From contig JAUHWN010000005.1 of the NCBI GenBank assembly GCA_030424665.1, forward strand, positions 1 to 58,588: a stretch of DNA of 58,588 nt, read 5' to 3'. The stretch is from Bdellovibrionia bacterium (GTDB lineage: Bacteria > Bdellovibrionota > Bdellovibrionia > Bdellovibrionales > JAGQZY01). A model generated the notes under the pieces. That model saw only the letters and a program-made list of their open reading frames with translations, did no database searches and was not told the origin of the DNA. A program made the translations under genes and the position numbers. Position 1 is the first letter of the stretch, and every line of letters starts with the position of its first letter. Shown in pieces: positions 36,417-49,960 of the stretch.

Positions 36417-36917
36417 TTGATGAATTGGGAATCGAGACTGAACAGCCAGATGATAATTTTGACGGGCCTCATTGTAGCCGGTCTCTTCGTCATAAATGCC
36501 TTTTTCTTACTGACTCCCCCTAATACTCAAATGGAACAAAAGTTGAGCGAAAGAAAGCGAAGCCCCGCTGCGGTCGAAGGCCAAAAGAAAATTCTTGAAA
36601 GCCCTGGGAGCAAGAGGGTGACTCGAATCCAAGAATTTCAATTAAACTGCTTTGATAATACCGAGATCTTTGTAGAAAGAGCTATCCGCCAGATTCAACT
36701 GACCATAGGCCACTGCCAATCTGTACCCTCAGAAACACCGAGTATTCAGCTAGTGAATATTAACAACAACTTCACCGCTAGCATCTTTTCTCTCAGCCAG
36801 AATCGCTATAAGACGGATCTGATCCAACTGAAACCCGGGAACAATGAAATCGTTATTCGAAGTCAAACTCTCGATGGCAAGAAGTCATTATCTCGCCTCT
36901 TTGTAAAAAGAAAATAA
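36417..36917 (+). CDS. Membrane-anchored hypothetical protein
   Basis: TTG-ATG start pair. One TM helix MIILTGLIVAGLFVINAFFLL, then a beta-rich C-terminal region. No family recognised. Confidence 0.5.
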   Translation: MMNWESRLNSQMIILTGLIVAGLFVINAFFLLTPPNTQMEQKLSERKRSPAAVEGQKKILESPGSKRVTRIQEFQLNCFDNTEIFVERAIRQIQLTIGHCQSVPSETPSIQLVNINNNFTASIFSLSQNRYKTDLIQLKPGNNEIVIRSQTLDGKKSLSRLFVKRK

Positions 36918-37005
36918 AAAAAACCAGAGCCGGGGAGCTCTGGCTTCCGAGAAGAAAACTTCTCTGAACGTTGGTTTCGGGGGGGAGGGGGGTTGTTGCC
37001 TATAT
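36916..37005 (-). ncRNA. Candidate small RNA with a C-rich tract and a UCCCCG-loop intrinsic terminator
   Basis: Minus strand reads CCCCCCUCCCCCCC (36979-36992), then GAGAAG-UUUU-CUUCUC (36949-36964), then CCAGAGC-UCCCCG-GCUCUGG (36924-36943) followed by U8. No minus-strand CDS lies upstream. The 5' end is not determined. Confidence 0.35.
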
Positions 37006-37231
37006 GTAAGAGCAATCAAAGGACCAATTAGAATCCCTTTAGATTTGATTTGAAGTCAGTGCCAAAGCCTTTTGACAACTTTCGCCGGCACTTTGTCAGC
37101 TCACTTAACACCTGTCAGCACTCTCTAGATATGTAAAAACCCTTTACAATTTCAATGACCAAAGAGTCTCAACTCGGCCAAATTTGAATTCGTGCTTGAA
37201 AACTCGGCAGATTAATAGTGAAAAGAAATGG

Positions 37232-46757: not shown

Positions 46758-47153
46758 ATGGCTGAAGAAAAAGTATTCTACGCAACAGGACGCCGAAAAA
46801 CCTCTACTGCCCGTGTATTTTTGAAGCCGGGTAGCGGAAAGATCGAAATCAACGGTAAGACAAGTGACAACTACCTTAGTCGCCCGTCTTCTAGAGCAAC
46901 AATTGAGCAACCTTTCCAAGCAATTTCACAAAACGGAAAGTTTGACTGCTACATTACTGTAAAAGGTGGTGGTGAGTCTGGACAAGCCGGCGCTATTCGT
47001 CACGGAATTTCTAGAGCTCTTACAATCTTTGACGAAGAGAACAGAAAAGCTCTTAAGAAGGTTGGATACCTTACTCGTGACTCTCGTATGGTTGAACGTA
47101 AGAAATATGGTCTCCACAAAGCACGTCGTAAGTCACAATTCTCTAAGCGTTAA
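46758..47153 (+). CDS. rpsI: 30S ribosomal protein S9
   Basis: [15 protein letters not shown]...[19 protein letters not shown]...[27 protein letters not shown] is the canonical S9 sequence. Confidence 0.97.
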
Positions 47154-47183
47154 TCGCAAGAGTATTAAAATTTGTTTTATCAA

Positions 47184-47210
47184 AGCCAGGTTTCACACCT
47201 GGCTTTTTTT
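47184..47210 (+). terminator. Rho-independent terminator of rplM-rpsI
   Basis: AGCCAGGT-TTCAC-ACCTGGCT followed by TTTTTTT. Confidence 0.8.
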
Positions 47211-47310
47211 GTGCCCTATGAATATCGATGGGGACCGCCCTAATTGCAAAACCACCAGAGTTAATTGAATTATAGTAATCCCCTAGGTTCATTCTTTTAA
47301 CTAAAAGTGA

Positions 47311-47440
47311 GGGGGTAAAAAAGAAGAAACCCTGGCGGGAACCAGGGTCTCCGGGTATTGGGTATAGGTAGGGACGACTCTTCGGGGAAAGAGTCACAGG
47401 TCGGGGAACCTGAACATCGGGGGGACGATGATACTTTTAT
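47311..47440 (-). ncRNA. Candidate small RNA: four consecutive hairpins with U(U/C)CCC(C/G) loops, the last an intrinsic terminator
   Basis: Minus strand reads CAUCG-UCCCCC-CGAUG (47415-47430), CAGGU-UCCCCG-ACCUG (47397-47412), GACUCUU-UCCCCG-AAGAGUC (47376-47395), and ACCCUGG-UUCCCG-CCAGGGU (47329-47348) followed by UUUCUUCUUUUUU. It is intergenic. The only overlapping ORF (47143..47397) looks spurious. The 5' end is not determined. Confidence 0.4.
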
Positions 47441-47709
47441 ATATAGCAAGGGCCAGACCAGCTCAGAACAGCTTTAAATTGGCGCATACAGAGTTCTAAT
47501 GTGTATAGTTGCTGCTAGGGTGTGACAATTTATCAGTCGTCACAATTCTACAGTTTGCGAACTCTTTTGATAGGCTTCGAACAGCTGTACATTTGTTAGG
47601 AATCTAACATTCGTTTCAAAGTGAGATTTCTCGCTCAACCCCATAAGGGCCGCTCTCAAATCAAACCTGAGAAGAGTATTCCTTAATCAATTTCAAGCCC
47701 GATAGATCG

Positions 47710-47737
47710 AAAAAAATAGGCGAGCTCTCGCTCGCCT
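47710..47737 (-). terminator. Rho-independent terminator downstream of the TonB-dependent receptor
   Basis: Minus strand reads AGGCGAGC-GAGA-GCTCGCCT followed by ATTTTTTT. Confidence 0.7.
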
Positions 47738-47771
47738 GTTATTCGTCGCTTTACAGAAAGGAACTTGGAAC

Positions 47772-49829
47772 CTAGAACTTCTGATCAACCGTCAAGCCGA
47801 CAAAACGCCCTGGCTGTGGAGCCTTAGTGTTAAGCCAGCCCTCAGGCCCTTCACCAAAAGGAGAGGCGTGCTCGTATTTTTCGTCTAGGAGGTTACGTGC
47901 AAACAGAGTTAAAGAGCCGTCTTTCCAAAGGTCTTTGTAATGAATAGAAAGGTCGACTAAAAAATGCCCATCAATCTTTCCAATTCCATTGGTAGCCGTA
48001 GCATCAAGAAAACTAATTTCATCAGACCAGCGGAGTCTTGTATCGAAACTCAATTGATCCATCTTATAGTTTGCTCCCGCAGAGACCTTGCTTTGCGCCA
48101 CCTTGTTGAGATCTTCTCCACCGTCTTGCTCAGCATTGAGGTATGAGTAATAGAGGTAGGCAGTAATGTTGTCCTGTTGATAATCGAACTCTAATTCAAA
48201 ACCAGATGACTTTGGCTCACCCTGGTTTACATTGCTACTCCATCCACCATTATTTTCGGGACGAATTAAATTCTTAATGTTGTTCATAAATGAATTAAGA
48301 GAAACATTGAGGTTTTTGGTGAGTAAGTACGAAAAGTTCAACTGAATCGTTTGCAACTCTTCTGGCTCAAGATCCGGATTGGGAAAATATCCAAAGGTAC
48401 CGGCGCTCCAATGCTCAAAAGCAAGGTAACGCGAAGGTTTGATATAGGCTTCACCATACAAGAGTTTAGCAACAAATTTATCATCCGGAGTATAGACGAC
48501 ACCCGCTCTTGGCGTGAAAACCCCATAGTAATCGGAGTTATAGTCATAGCGAACACCAACGTTAAACTGCCATACATCATCTGGTGCATAATTCGCTTCA
48601 GTGTATACACCTGCCCCGGTATATGGTCTCACACCGAAGTTGAGAGTCTGATTACGAAACTCAACGGGAATATTAGTGTCATTCGGGTATGTGATTGAGT
48701 CGACAAGGTCGTCTCTATCAAATGGAGTGTTTAAGTTGTTTCCTTTTGCAAAGGCATCGACTGATTCAGCTTTGAAACCCGAAACCAATTTATACTTTTT
48801 AGAAGGTCTCCATTCTAACTTCTCCTCAATATACATGGCTGTGTTCTTACCATACTTATACTGAAGGAATGGTCCCTGATAGTAGAAAACTGAATTGGGA
48901 TCGATTTCATAATCTTCATAACCTATCAATGTATCAAGTGTCCAATTCTCGCCTTCAAAAGTGTGCTCAACAGTGATTTTATTTTGCTTTTGATTCCATA
49001 CATAGCCAGCATCAAACTGAAAAAGTGCAGGAGACGTTGATTGCCCACCCGGTTCATTGGCATTCTGATGGTAGAAGGTAACCTTAGCTTCACCAATATT
49101 AGTCACCCAGTGTACTTCAAAATCATTAACTGGCTGCTCAAAACCTAATCCAAGAGTGTTGTAGGTATCAAATGATTCAAAACCTGTTGGATCAAACCCT
49201 TTACTAAAAAATCTTCTGTAAGAAATCATTGAATTCACTTTGTCATTGAACTCATGACCGACTACGACTCCGGCATCTATCGTCTCTGGATCGCCGTAAC
49301 TGATATTCACAGCTCCCATATTTCCGTCTTTTTTGTAGTCTTCGAAACTCTTAGAAATTACATTCACAATACCCGCATAGGCATCAGCACCGTAGTGAAC
49401 CGCTCCCGGCCCATAAACGATTTCAATTCGTTTTACATTAAATAATGGGATGTTATTTCCTAGAACGAAACGTTCACCAGTAATCGCATTAAGGCGTTTA
49501 CCATCTTTAAGAAACAGGAGCTTATTAGCGCCAAGAAGACCACGATTCATCGCAAGCGTTCTTACCTCACCCGTTAACTCTTCGGACACATCAAAGCCCG
49601 GAAGGTCACGAAAAATATCCTTAAGATCTCGATATCCTCTTTCTTTGATTTGGCTCTCTGTAATTACCCGAACCGTTGCCGGAGTTTTTCTTAGACTCTC
49701 TTCTGATTTCGAAGCTGTTGTCACCGTAACATCAAGAAATTGCGTAAGATCCATATTATCAACATCAATGTCTTGAGCTTGGGCCTGAAAACAAAACAGC
49801 ATTGCAAACAAAATAGTTAGTGATTTCAT
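47772..49829 (-). CDS. TonB-dependent outer-membrane receptor
   Basis: I prefer ATG 49829 (AGGA 6 nt upstream), which gives MKSLTILFAMLFCFQAQA/QD. Plug-domain motifs TASKSEESLRKTPATVRVITESQIKERGYRDLKDIFRDLPG and RIEIVYGPGAVHYGADAYAGIVNV. Long beta-barrel with C-terminal ...GLTVDQKF. Confidence 0.9.
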   Translation of the reverse strand: MKSLTILFAMLFCFQAQAQDIDVDNMDLTQFLDVTVTTASKSEESLRKTPATVRVITESQIKERGYRDLKDIFRDLPGFDVSEELTGEVRTLAMNRGLLGANKLLFLKDGKRLNAITGERFVLGNNIPLFNVKRIEIVYGPGAVHYGADAYAGIVNVISKSFEDYKKDGNMGAVNISYGDPETIDAGVVVGHEFNDKVNSMISYRRFFSKGFDPTGFESFDTYNTLGLGFEQPVNDFEVHWVTNIGEAKVTFYHQNANEPGGQSTSPALFQFDAGYVWNQKQNKITVEHTFEGENWTLDTLIGYEDYEIDPNSVFYYQGPFLQYKYGKNTAMYIEEKLEWRPSKKYKLVSGFKAESVDAFAKGNNLNTPFDRDDLVDSITYPNDTNIPVEFRNQTLNFGVRPYTGAGVYTEANYAPDDVWQFNVGVRYDYNSDYYGVFTPRAGVVYTPDDKFVAKLLYGEAYIKPSRYLAFEHWSAGTFGYFPNPDLEPEELQTIQLNFSYLLTKNLNVSLNSFMNNIKNLIRPENNGGWSSNVNQGEPKSSGFELEFDYQQDNITAYLYYSYLNAEQDGGEDLNKVAQSKVSAGANYKMDQLSFDTRLRWSDEISFLDATATNGIGKIDGHFLVDLSIHYKDLWKDGSLTLFARNLLDEKYEHASPFGEGPEGWLNTKAPQPGRFVGLTVDQKF

Positions 49830-49960
49830 AGGGTTCCTCTCAAATTGCATATGATCAATGTTACTCAAATTGAGACGATCAACAACTTCTATTGAAATCA
49901 AACAGGACTTTAGACCATTAACCGATAGAAACAAAATCTAGCCATTTAGAAGAGATAAAT

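What the first reader, a model, noticed from the sequence alone, without database searches (positions are those of the whole stretch)
47311..47440. Intergenic locus encoding four stacked hairpins with UCCCC-type loops and an intrinsic terminator (candidate anti-Shine-Dalgarno sRNA)
Seen directly: on the minus strand there are four hairpins in a row, and their loops are UCCCCC, UCCCCG, UCCCCG and UUCCCG. The fourth stem is followed by UUUCUUCUUUUUU, so the terminator orientation points to minus-strand transcription. The region lies in a 560 bp non-coding gap after the rpsI terminator.

Also seen directly: several genes in this window use GGGGA-type Shine-Dalgarno sequences, which are exactly complementary to UCCCC.
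- 9669: GGGGGGAAATA-ATG
- 6619: GGGGAGAAGCA-ATG
- 13095: GGGGATATT-ATG
- 25414: AGGGGAACGGGAC-GTG
- 33545: GGGGAAAAGGTAT-ATG

Established knowledge: sRNAs that present C-rich loops (RsaE/RoxS, the 6C RNA, CcsR-type RNAs) repress translation by pairing with G-rich ribosome-binding sites.

Inference: this is a multi-loop anti-Shine-Dalgarno regulator.

Alternative: if it is transcribed from the plus strand, the loops read CGGGGA / CGGGAA. These are GGA-in-loop motifs like those of CsrA/RsmA-sequestering RNAs. The lack of a plus-strand U-tract argues against this reading.
Basis: partly seen in the sequence, partly recalled or inferred. Interest (0 to 1): 0.65.

Follow-up and report, generated by a model that had tools for sequence, protein, structure and literature searches.

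The report
Sigma-54-driven small RNA with cytosine loops
This is very probably a real, uncatalogued small regulatory RNA gene of about 119 bases in a predatory-type (Bdellovibrionia) bacterium. It appears to be switched on by the sigma-54 transcription machinery, and its cytosine-tipped hairpins most likely block the unusual guanine-run ribosome-binding sites that many genes of this genome use.

Summary
The four minus-strand hairpins with C-rich loops and a U-tract terminator are real (fold z = -5.97 on the minus strand, -1.36 on the plus strand).

It scores 16.9 bits on a matrix built from 28 promoters of other genera.

The 148-nt block from this promoter to the end of the U-tract (47314-47461) has no substitutions against the sister species. 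The rest of the 618-nt gap has 72. This defines an independent gene of about 119 nt on the minus strand and argues against the plus-strand CsrA-sponge reading.

Rfam has no match, and no homologue was found outside the genus.

The same design (sigma-54 promoter, unpaired C-runs, C-rich terminator loop) recurs in:
- a second RNA in this window;
- a multicopy RNA in a sister genus;
- a 60-nt RNA in 135 of 201 genomes of the order.

Hfq is absent from 26 of 26 lineage genomes. G-run Shine-Dalgarno sites are common: 13.5% of G6 runs precede a start codon. The C-loops are computed to bind them better than the 16S tail does, and they barely bind GGAGG.

No transcript data were available and no specific target was identified. 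Verdict: a new member of the known C-rich, anti-Shine-Dalgarno type of sRNA.

The parts
47521..47544 (-). Inverted repeat TGTGAC-N12-GTCACA, centred about 98 nt upstream of the inferred start. It is a candidate binding site (UAS) for an enhancer-binding protein.
   Evidence: Read. It is the only copy of this repeat in the genome. It is only partly conserved: in the sister species and in metagenome relatives the right half-site becomes GTCACT or GTCATT. Its function is inferred only.
47446..47461 (-). Sigma-54-type promoter: -24 TGG at 47460..47458 and -12 TTGC at 47449..47446 (GG-N10-GC spacing), followed by the A/T-rich stretch TATATATAAAAG.
   Evidence: The sequence is. It scores 16.9 bits on a matrix built from 28 promoters of the order-wide RNA in other genera, and only about 48 of 8.86 million genome positions reach 16 bits. 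The invariant block begins exactly at the C before TGG. RpoN and at least 9 GAFTGA activators are encoded in the genome.
47316..47434 (-). Inferred sRNA transcript of about 119 nt. The start is placed at G47434 (+/-2), 12 nt after the -12 C. The end is the last U of the terminator tail.
   Evidence: The start is inferred from promoter geometry and was not measured. There are no differences in 47314-47461 against 72 differences elsewhere in the 618-nt gap, compared with the sister species. Metagenome contigs show the same pattern.
47415..47430 (-). Hairpin 1: CAUCG / loop UCCCCC / CGAUG (a C6 run).
47397..47412 (-). Hairpin 2: CAGGU(U) / loop CCCC / (G)ACCUG.
47376..47395 (-). Hairpin 3: GACUCUU(U) / loop CCCC / (G)AAGAGUC.
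47353..47375 (-). Single-stranded linker GUCCCUACCUAUACCCAAUACCC with three CCC motifs. It resembles the CCC(C)AUA repeats of the sister-genus RNAs.
   Evidence: Unpaired probability is 0.89-0.99. The resemblance to the sister-genus RNAs is seen in the R1 alignments.
47316..47352 (-). Intrinsic terminator: a 10-12 bp stem, loop U(U)CCC(G), and tail UUUCUUCUUUUUU.

Best explanation
The locus is an independent gene for a trans-acting small RNA of about 119 nt, read from the minus strand (about 47434 to 47316).

How it is made (inferred from sequence): RNA polymerase carrying sigma-54 (RpoN), activated by an unidentified enhancer-binding protein, starts transcription about 12 nt after a -24/-12 promoter. 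Transcription ends at the fourth hairpin.

What the RNA presents (shown by folding): C6, C4, C4 and C3 runs in four hairpin loops, plus three CCC motifs in an unpaired linker.

How it most likely acts (inferred mechanism): these C-runs pair, without Hfq, with the G-run Shine-Dalgarno sequences (GGGG(G)(G)A) used by several hundred genes of this genome. The computed C-loop:G-run duplex is more stable than the 16S-tail:G-run duplex, whereas C-loops hardly bind a canonical GGAGG site. The RNA would therefore selectively shut off translation of the G-run subset when its sigma-54 activator is on.

My odds for each step: sRNA gene on the minus strand about 0.85; sigma-54 dependence about 0.7; anti-Shine-Dalgarno action about 0.5. 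The confidence given for this explanation (0.5) is for the whole chain, including the mechanism.
For: Structure and terminator:
- (z = -5.97).

Purifying selection with sharp borders:
- There are no differences in 47314-47461 and 72 in the remaining 470 nt of the gap, compared with the sister species.
- A simple binomial estimate is (470/618)^72, about 3e-9.
- Metagenome contigs show the same pattern. In one of them the left spacer is replaced by 89 unrelated bases while the block stays intact.

Promoter:
- It scores 16.9 bits on an independent matrix, a score reached at about 5e-6 of genome positions.
- RpoN and at least 9 GAFTGA activators are present.
- Dozens of similar promoters precede genes in this genome.

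Support from other RNAs of the same design:
- RNA B in this window keeps TGG/TTGC and the UCCCC terminator loop in 4 copies. One stem pair is flipped C:G to G:C.
- The multicopy RNAs of the sister genus keep C-rich loops on completely different stems.
- RNA C is present in 135 of 201 genomes of the order. 30 of 30 copies examined have TGGCA(C/T)-N5-TTGCT, and the C-runs are conserved.

A pool of possible targets exists:
- 13.5% of G6 runs and 9.8% of G5 runs lie 3-10 nt before the start of an ORF of at least 100 aa. The figures are 1-3.4% for C-runs and 12.1% for GGAGG.
- 54 predicted genes have a Shine-Dalgarno site with a run of at least 6 G.

Energetics:
- SL1 on a G6 site: -18.7 kcal/mol; 16S tail on the same site: -11.8.
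- On GGAGG: sRNA loops about -4; 16S tail -13.3.

Hfq:
- It is absent from 26 of 26 lineage genomes, and the control genomes were positive.

Precedent:
Against: - No transcript was observed.
- No homologue exists outside the genus, and all known copies are identical. This RNA's own stems therefore have no covariation support.
- Target prediction is driven by composition. The real and the reversed RNA give the same energy distributions over 4012 start regions.
- The best-scoring candidate targets show no functional theme.
- The -24 element is TGGTCT rather than TGGCAC.
- A weak sigma-70 reading (TTCTGA-N17-TATATA) cannot be formally excluded.
- The putative UAS is unique in the genome and only partly conserved.
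- The neighbouring receptor gene has an ordinary GAGAGGAA ribosome-binding site.
Confidence: 0.5

Rival explanations
1. The minus-strand RNA is real but works mainly as a decoy for a protein that recognises C-rich hairpin loops or C-rich unpaired RNA. Candidates would be a KH- or S1-type RNA-binding protein, or Rho. This would be analogous to how CsrB/RsmZ titrate CsrA.
For: - There are four to seven repeated C-motifs on one short RNA. The related sister-genus RNAs are multicopy and carry 3-5 tandem CCC(C)AUA repeats, a layout typical of protein sponges.
- No specific mRNA target stood out.
Against: - I know of no bacterial protein with this specificity that is titrated by an sRNA (general knowledge).
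- The genome has an abundant complementary RNA motif, the G-run Shine-Dalgarno sites.
- Characterised RNAs of this design act by base pairing (PMC4132741).
Confidence: 0.15
2. The minus-strand RNA acts by base pairing, but not by blocking ribosome-binding sites. It could pair with G-rich sites in coding regions or 5' ends to change mRNA stability, or it could sponge another G-rich RNA.
For: - 86% of G6 runs do not lie at Shine-Dalgarno positions, so many other complementary sites exist.
- RoxS is known to act on mRNA 5' ends as well (paper title listed: PMC5419742).
Against: - G-runs are 3- to 13-fold enriched at Shine-Dalgarno positions compared with C-runs.
- The calculated discrimination between G-run and GGAGG sites fits a translational role.
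Confidence: 0.15
3. The element is transcribed from the plus strand and is a CsrA-sequestering RNA whose loops read CGGGGA/CGGGAA (GGA motifs in hairpin loops).
For: - A csrA gene is present (G000:C215:4570-4761).
- All four plus-strand loops contain GGA.
Against: - The invariant block starts only 16 nt before the first plus-strand hairpin. The DNA further upstream is variable, or replaced outright, in relatives. No conserved plus-strand promoter can therefore exist.
- rpsI has its own terminator upstream.
- There is no proper plus-strand terminator; the only candidate is a 5-bp stem followed by ACTTTTAT.
- The 30 invariant bases beyond the last plus-strand hairpin are explained by the minus-strand promoter.
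- The plus-strand fold is not better than shuffles (z = -1.36).
Confidence: 0.04
4. It is not a gene. It could be a chance cluster of hairpins, a spare or bidirectional terminator region between convergent genes, a repeat element, or a small protein gene (the 50-codon ORF 47297..47449).
For: - It lies between two convergent genes.
- A 50-aa ORF overlaps it.
Against: - There are no substitutions in 148 nt, against about 15% divergence in the flanks. That includes every third-codon position of the ORF, and the ORF's TTG start lies inside the promoter.
- It is single-copy in the genome.
- Both neighbouring genes have their own terminators.
Confidence: 0.03

Closest known systems
LhrC sRNAs of Listeria monocytogenes
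   Same: - About 110 nt long.
- Redundant UCCC-type sites placed in a hairpin loop, in a single-stranded stretch and in the terminator loop.
- Blocks a Shine-Dalgarno site.
- Hfq is dispensable.
- Controlled by a signal-transduction system.
- Multicopy, like the sister-genus relatives found here.

Source for the LhrC features: PMC4132741.
   Different: - No sequence or covariance-model similarity; Rfam gave nothing.
- Different phylum.
- This RNA has three tandem short hairpins plus a linker.
- It has a sigma-54 promoter rather than a LisRK/sigma-A promoter.
- It carries longer pure C-runs (C4-C6) that match G-run sites rather than GGAG-type sites.
RsaE/RoxS, FsrA and IsrR (C-rich-region sRNAs of Firmicutes)
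   Same: - Several C-rich regions in unpaired positions that pair with G-rich ribosome-binding sites.
- They function without Hfq.

Sources: papers listed, and general knowledge.
   Different: - Not homologous. The best Rfam score is FsrA at 15.6 bits, against a gathering score of 80.
- Those RNAs are controlled by ResD/Rex/Fur-type regulators through sigma-A promoters.
- They occur in low-GC Gram-positive bacteria.
6C RNA of Actinobacteria and CcsR/cuckoo RNAs of Alphaproteobacteria
   Same: Hairpins whose loops carry conserved C-runs, thought to pair with G-rich mRNA sites (general knowledge).
   Different: - No Rfam match.
- Different stem architecture and different promoters.
- 6C has two loops with at least 6 C, and CcsR loops read CCUCCUCCC.
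Sigma-54-dependent sRNAs (Qrr of Vibrio, Pxr of Myxococcus, GlmY, CrcZ)
   Same: Small RNA genes driven by a -24/-12 promoter and an enhancer-binding protein. Qrr also has four stem-loops ending in the terminator (general knowledge).
   Different: - No sequence similarity.
- Those RNAs use Hfq (Qrr), titrate proteins (GlmY, CrcZ), or have an unknown mechanism (Pxr).
- None is defined by C-run loops.
CsrB/RsmZ-type CsrA sponges
   Same: Tandem short hairpins with a repeated loop motif. Read on the plus strand, the loops contain GGA, and csrA is present in the genome.
   Different: The orientation is wrong. The promoter, the terminator and the conservation borders all fit the minus strand, where the loops read UCCCC.

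Membership tests
Any Rfam family (including RsaE, FsrA, 6C, LhrC-type, CsrB/RsmZ, Qrr) | A covariance-model score at or above the family's gathering threshold. | tested here: not met
   There were no matches at gathering threshold in the whole window. In a permissive search of 47150-47780, the best overlapping match was FsrA at 15.6 bits against a threshold of 80, E = 1.3.
Functional class: C-rich anti-Shine-Dalgarno sRNA | An independent transcription unit (own promoter and own terminator) with no coding potential. | tested here: met
   - Promoter.
- Terminator.
- Invariance at all codon positions, with borders that match the promoter and the terminator.

This is in silico evidence only.
Functional class: C-rich anti-Shine-Dalgarno sRNA | C-rich motifs exposed in loops or single-stranded stretches. 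| tested here: met
   7 of the 8 C-runs have an unpaired probability of 0.84-1.0.
Functional class: C-rich anti-Shine-Dalgarno sRNA | Complementary G-rich ribosome-binding sites exist in the same genome. | tested here: met
   - G6 runs 13.5% and G5 runs 9.8% at Shine-Dalgarno positions, against 1-3.4% for C-runs.
- 54 genes with a run of at least 6 G.
Functional class: C-rich anti-Shine-Dalgarno sRNA | Demonstrated pairing with, and repression of, a specific mRNA. | not testable with these tools
   In silico ranking did not beat a reversed-sequence control. Reporter or toeprint assays are needed.
Sigma-54-dependent gene | GG and GC dinucleotides 10 nt apart within a TGGCAC-N5-TTGCW-like sequence, placed just upstream of the transcript. 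| tested here: met
   The sequence is TGGTCT-GGCCC-TTGCT. It scores 16.9 bits on a matrix from 28 promoters of other genera, and about 48 sites in the genome reach 16 bits.
Sigma-54-dependent gene | The genome encodes RpoN and enhancer-binding proteins. | tested here: met
   The RpoN box ARRTVAKYR is found on C110, and 9 GAFTGA motifs are found across the genome.
Sigma-54-dependent gene | An upstream activator site, and dependence on rpoN. | tested here: inconclusive
   The inverted repeat TGTGAC-N12-GTCACA at about -98 is unique in the genome and partly conserved. Dependence on rpoN cannot be tested here.
CsrA-sequestering RNA (CsrB/RsmZ type) | Transcribed so that the GGA motifs lie in the loops, with its own promoter and terminator on that strand. 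| tested here: not met
   There is no conserved plus-strand promoter region and no plus-strand terminator. The conservation borders fit the minus strand.
The order-wide sigma-54 C-run RNA ('RNA C', model R3) and the sister-genus multicopy RNA (model R2) | A match to the covariance model of that RNA. | tested here: not met
   R3 and R2 do not hit the locus. The model of this RNA (R1) gives only weak hits of 18-20 bits, through the linker and terminator, to the sister-genus RNAs. The design is the same, but homology is not demonstrated.

The most novel reading that the evidence does not exclude
Bdellovibrionia, a lineage without Hfq, may run a two-tier 'Shine-Dalgarno code'. Several hundred genes carry pure G-run ribosome-binding sites instead of GGAGG. 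A set of sigma-54-controlled C-run sRNAs would switch this whole subset off, or tune it, in response to enhancer-binding-protein signals. The set comprises the order-wide 60-nt RNA C plus lineage-specific elaborations such as this four-loop RNA, RNA B and the multicopy sister-genus RNAs. Predicted sigma-54-dependent mRNAs are themselves enriched in G5 Shine-Dalgarno sites (15.8% against 6.2%, p = 0.009), so the circuit could be a built-in feed-forward or feedback loop on the sigma-54 regulon.
Probability: 0.25. Interest if true: 0.75.

Novelty: new member of a known kind. Interest (0 to 1): 0.5.

Why it matters
- Almost nothing is known about RNA-based regulation in predatory Bdellovibrio-like bacteria. 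The one transcriptome survey read here lists eight attack-phase sRNAs with no homologues outside B. bacteriovorus (PMC3627812).
- This locus, together with the related RNAs found while checking it, points to an uncatalogued group of sigma-54-controlled, Hfq-independent regulators. One of them is present in about two thirds of the order.
- The work also gives a concrete, testable reason why these genomes use so many G-run ribosome-binding sites.
- Even if the mechanism holds, this particular RNA is a genus-level member of a mode of action already well described in Gram-positive bacteria.

Tried and rejected
1. Rfam at gathering and at permissive thresholds found nothing.

2. Searches for homologues of this RNA:
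   - BLAST in 41 relatives.
   - Covariance model R1 in all 26 family genomes and in 201 genomes of the order.
   - Only the sister species matched. The other hits were terminators or unrelated sequences.
   - The third species of the genus lacks rpsI in its 81%-complete assembly, so absence there cannot be judged.

   - None of the 80 metagenome loci scanned with R1 matched.
   - The only gain was the record title of the sister genome: 'MAG: Bdellovibrionia bacterium isolate 7_bin.39' (L183 = G001:C1).

4. RNA-seq: the runs flagged as possible RNA contained only short contigs that run past the promoter.

5. Target prediction:
   - Full-length duplexfold gave unphysical interactions.
   - An 18-nt-window version gave the same distribution for the real and the reversed RNA.
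   - The best hairpin-centred candidates are an alpha/beta hydrolase, a RecJ-like DHH protein, an SPFH protein, an EF-hand hydrolase, an LPG-synthase-C protein and DUF4423. They share no theme.

6. A shared activator site: the TGTGAC-N12-GTCACA repeat occurs nowhere else in the genome.

7. A regulatory link to the neighbouring TonB-dependent receptor gene: its ribosome-binding site is GAGAGGAA, not a G-run.

8. The 3' end of 16S rRNA was not found in this assembly. The anti-Shine-Dalgarno sequence used is therefore the universal one, from general knowledge.

Full report
**What is in the sequence**

Between the convergent genes rpsI (46758-47153, +) and a TonB-dependent receptor gene (47772-49934, -) lies a 618-nt non-coding gap. 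Each gene has its own intrinsic terminator: 47182-47206 on the plus strand and 47737..47718 on the minus strand.

Between the two terminators, the minus strand contains:
- three short hairpins: SL1 (47430..47415), SL2 (47412..47397) and SL3 (47395..47376);
- a 23-nt unpaired linker;
- a fourth hairpin (47352..47325) followed by UUUCUUCUUUUUU.

Folding statistics:
- The minus strand folds far better than shuffled sequence: -43.8 against -24.3 +/- 3.3 kcal/mol, z = -5.97, with 0 of 200 shuffles as good.
- The plus strand does not: z = -1.36.
- In the ensemble, seven of the eight runs of at least 3 C are unpaired with probability 0.84-1.0.

Directly upstream on the minus strand the sequence reads C-TGGTCT-GGCCC-TTGCT-ATATATAAAAG. 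The TGG lies at 47460..47458 and the TTGC at 47449..47446. This is the GG-N10-GC geometry of a sigma-54 (-24/-12) promoter. It places the start at about G47434, four bases before hairpin 1.

To test this independently, I built a position matrix from 28 promoters of a different RNA in other genera (RNA C, described below).
- The promoter at this locus scores 16.9 bits.
- Only about 48 of 8.86 million positions in this genome reach 16 bits.
- A chance occurrence at exactly this place and on this strand is therefore very unlikely.

The genome encodes RpoN (RpoN box on contig C110) and at least nine GAFTGA enhancer-binding proteins. Many similar promoters sit in front of protein-coding genes.

A weak sigma-70 reading (TTCTGA-N17-TATATA) cannot be formally excluded. 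However, its -35 hexamer varies in relatives, whereas the TGG does not.

An inverted repeat, TGTGAC-N12-GTCACA (47521-47544), lies about 98 nt upstream of the start. It is a plausible activator site, but it is unique in the genome and only partly conserved.

**Conservation defines the gene and its strand**

The window is contig C187 of a 4.43-Mb, 42% G+C assembly. The sister species is titled 'MAG: Bdellovibrionia bacterium isolate 7_bin.39' (L183 = G001:C1).

- Aligning the whole gap with the sister species gives 72 differences. None falls in 47314-47461. A simple estimate of the probability is (470/618)^72, about 3e-9.
- Metagenome contigs of relatives show the same pattern. In one of them, the spacer between the rpsI terminator and 47314 is replaced by 89 unrelated bases while the block stays intact.
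- The block begins at the base before the -24 TGG and ends just past the terminator U-tract.

These borders are what a minus-strand promoter-to-terminator unit predicts.

They are not what a plus-strand RNA predicts:
- Only 16 conserved bases precede the first plus-strand hairpin, so there is no room for a conserved plus-strand promoter.
- Thirty conserved bases follow the last plus-strand hairpin without forming a terminator.

The invariance at every position also argues against the overlapping 50-codon ORF. The element is single-copy in the genome, so it is not a repeat element.

**Relation to known RNAs and to relatives**

- Rfam has no match at gathering threshold. The best permissive hit is FsrA at 15.6 bits, against a threshold of 80.
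- BLAST and a covariance model of this RNA (R1) find it only in the sister species among 26 family genomes and 201 genomes of the order.
- The third species of the genus lacks rpsI in its incomplete assembly, so nothing can be said about it.
- All known copies are identical, so this RNA's own stems have no covariation evidence. This is a real limitation.

**The same design recurs in the lineage**

1. RNA B lies in this same window, on the minus strand at about 37000..36916.
   - It has TGGTCC-N5-TTGCT.
   - The RNA reads GGCAACAACCCCCCUCCCCCCC..., and its terminator loop is UCCCCG.
   - It is present in all three species of the genus, in four copies in total.
   - TGG/TTGC and the UCCCC loop are kept while the upstream DNA diverges. 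One stem pair flips from C:G to G:C.

2. A sister genus carries a multicopy RNA: 4-5 copies in G019, 3 in G011, and weaker hits in several other species.
   - It has three to five CCC(C)AUA repeats and a terminator whose stem is completely different between copies, while the loop stays C-rich.
   - It lies behind TGGCA(C/T)-N5-(G/A)TG(A/T).
   - The linker and terminator of the RNA under study resemble this repeat region. That resemblance explains why R1 found these RNAs at 18-20 bits.

3. RNA C lies at G000:C137:11039-11105 on the minus strand and is about 60 nt long.
   - It consists of a 5' unpaired C6 run and a terminator hairpin with a C-rich loop.
   - It occurs as a single copy in 135 of 201 genomes of the order, covering 56 of 81 genera.
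   - All 30 best copies have TGGCA(C/T)-N5-TTGCT at a fixed distance upstream.
   - The stem is paired in 99.3% of cells, with one compensatory pair.
   - It is not in Rfam.

Sigma-54-type promoters driving small RNAs with exposed C-runs are therefore a conserved feature of this order. The RNA under study is a genus-level elaboration with three extra C-loop hairpins. Homology among these RNAs is not demonstrated; the shared design is.

**Mechanism**

Hfq is absent from all 26 lineage genomes searched. The same search found it in five control genomes (tblastn was also negative). csrA is present.

G-run Shine-Dalgarno sites are a real, genome-wide feature. Share of motif occurrences that lie 3-10 nt upstream of a start codon opening an ORF of at least 100 aa:

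| Motif | Share |
|---|---|
| G6 runs | 13.5% |
| G5 runs | 9.8% |
| C6 runs | 1% |
| C5 runs | 3.4% |
| GGAGG | 12.1% |

- Fifty-four predicted genes have a run of at least 6 G in that position, typically in the form GGGGGGA-N3-5-ATG.

Nearest-neighbour duplex energies, in kcal/mol:

| Site | Best C-loop | 16S tail |
|---|---|---|
| G6 | -18.7 | -11.8 |
| G5 | -13.8 | -8.4 |
| GGGGA | -12.6 | -6.4 |
| Canonical GGAGG | about -4 | -13.3 |

These values ignore the cost of opening the sRNA stems.

The best-supported model is therefore an Hfq-independent RNA that selectively occludes G-run ribosome-binding sites. This is the mode of action shown experimentally for Listeria LhrC. [quoted passage not shown]

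The mechanistic step is inferred, not shown:
- Target ranking by duplex energy did not distinguish the real RNA from its reversed sequence.
- The top candidates have no common function.
- Predicted sigma-54-dependent genes are modestly enriched in G5 Shine-Dalgarno sites (15.8% against 6.2%, Fisher p = 0.009, one of three tests). This hints at a loop within the sigma-54 regulon but is weak evidence.

**Rival explanations**

- A protein-decoy role is possible, given the repeated motifs and the multicopy relatives, but no candidate protein is known.
- Pairing with G-rich sites outside ribosome-binding sites is also possible.
- The plus-strand CsrA-sponge reading is disfavoured by the promoter, the terminator, the folding statistics and the conservation borders.
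- A non-functional element or a small protein gene is disfavoured by the invariance.

**Limits of this work**

- No transcript evidence was obtained.
- No 16S 3' end is present in the assembly.

**Verdict**

This is a real, previously uncatalogued small-RNA gene. Its mode of action is most likely one already known from Gram-positive C-rich sRNAs. Here it is placed under sigma-54 control, in an Hfq-less predatory lineage that makes unusually heavy use of G-run ribosome-binding sites. Earlier notes of this scan report similar sigma-54-driven C-loop RNAs in marine myxobacteria and in Desulfobaccales. I did not check those notes and do not count them as support.

Noticed in passing
window 36916-37026 (minus strand): A second sigma-54-type unit ('RNA B'). 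It has TGGTCC-N5-TTGCT at 37026..37011, followed by an RNA of about 85 nt: GGCAACAACCCCCCUCCCCCCCGAAACC..., a GAGAAG/CUUCUC hairpin, and a terminator with loop UCCCCG plus U8. It is conserved in all three species of the genus (four copies). One terminator stem pair is flipped C:G to G:C while the loop is kept. The upstream inverted repeat TGACAA-N14-TTGTCA resembles a repeat found upstream of the sister-genus RNAs.
   Followed up: partly
G000:C137:11039-11136 (minus strand; loci L317/L343): 'RNA C' is an sRNA of about 60 nt: a 5' unpaired C6 run, then GGCGACCUGG, a C-rich loop, CCAGGUCG and U8. It lies behind a canonical TGGCAC-N5-TTGCT promoter. It is single-copy in 135 of 201 genomes of the order (56 of 81 genera). 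30 of 30 copies examined have the promoter at a fixed distance. It is not in Rfam. It looks like an undescribed, order-wide sigma-54-dependent sRNA and deserves its own report.
   Followed up: partly
G019 loci L032 (355-428 and 1501-1573, +) and L038 (1501-1587, -); also G011, G015, G021, G004, G020: A multicopy sRNA family in a sister genus. It has 3-5 CCC(C)AUA repeats and a terminator whose stem differs completely between copies while the loop stays C-rich. The promoters read TGGCA(C/T)-N5-(G/A)TG(A/T), that is a perfect -24 box with a non-canonical -12 box.
   Followed up: partly
G000:C191 about 48117-48290 (+); L010 (G039): Another orphan sigma-54-type unit ('RNA D'). It has TGGTCC-N5-TTGCT followed by ...CCGGCUCUUCCAC-N4-GUGGGUCC...GAGCU and a terminator. 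An orthologue lies in a different family (G039). The promoter of that orthologue is 91% identical over 31 nt to the promoter of the RNA under study.
   Followed up: no
whole genome G000: Pure G-runs serve as Shine-Dalgarno sites on a large scale. 56 of 416 G6 runs and 231 of 2365 G5 runs lie 3-10 nt before the start of an ORF of at least 100 aa. This rate is similar to that of GGAGG.
   Followed up: yes
26 genomes of the lineage (G000-G034): No Hfq (PF17209) was found in any of the 26 genomes, although the same search found it in 5 control genomes. csrA is present at G000:C215:4570-4761.
   Followed up: yes
G000:C154, + strand offset about 33600 and - strand offset about 43900: Two similar non-coding stretches (...CUAAC(A)CCCCAU...UUCUUCUGUCAYCCUCUCCAUUUCU...GCUAGGGCUG(C/A)GGCC...) lie about 10 kb apart on opposite strands. 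They may be a repeated RNA or a repeat element.
   Followed up: no
G000:C188 (- strand offset about 4369) and G000:C191 (+ strand offset about 34429): Two further terminator hairpins with strongly C-rich loops or C-rich upstream stretches: ACCCAACCCCUCCCCAACCCC + GCCGGUGCUG-CCCCCC-CAGCACCGGC, and GGCCCCC-AUCCCCUCCCCCUCUGGAAU-CGGGGGCC. No clear sigma-54 box precedes them.
   Followed up: no
genome G000, genes behind sigma-54-type boxes: Genes with a TGG-N8-TTGC box within 150 nt upstream have a G5 Shine-Dalgarno site more often than other genes: 9 of 57 against 247 of 3955, Fisher p = 0.009. The sample is small and this was one of three tests.
   Followed up: partly
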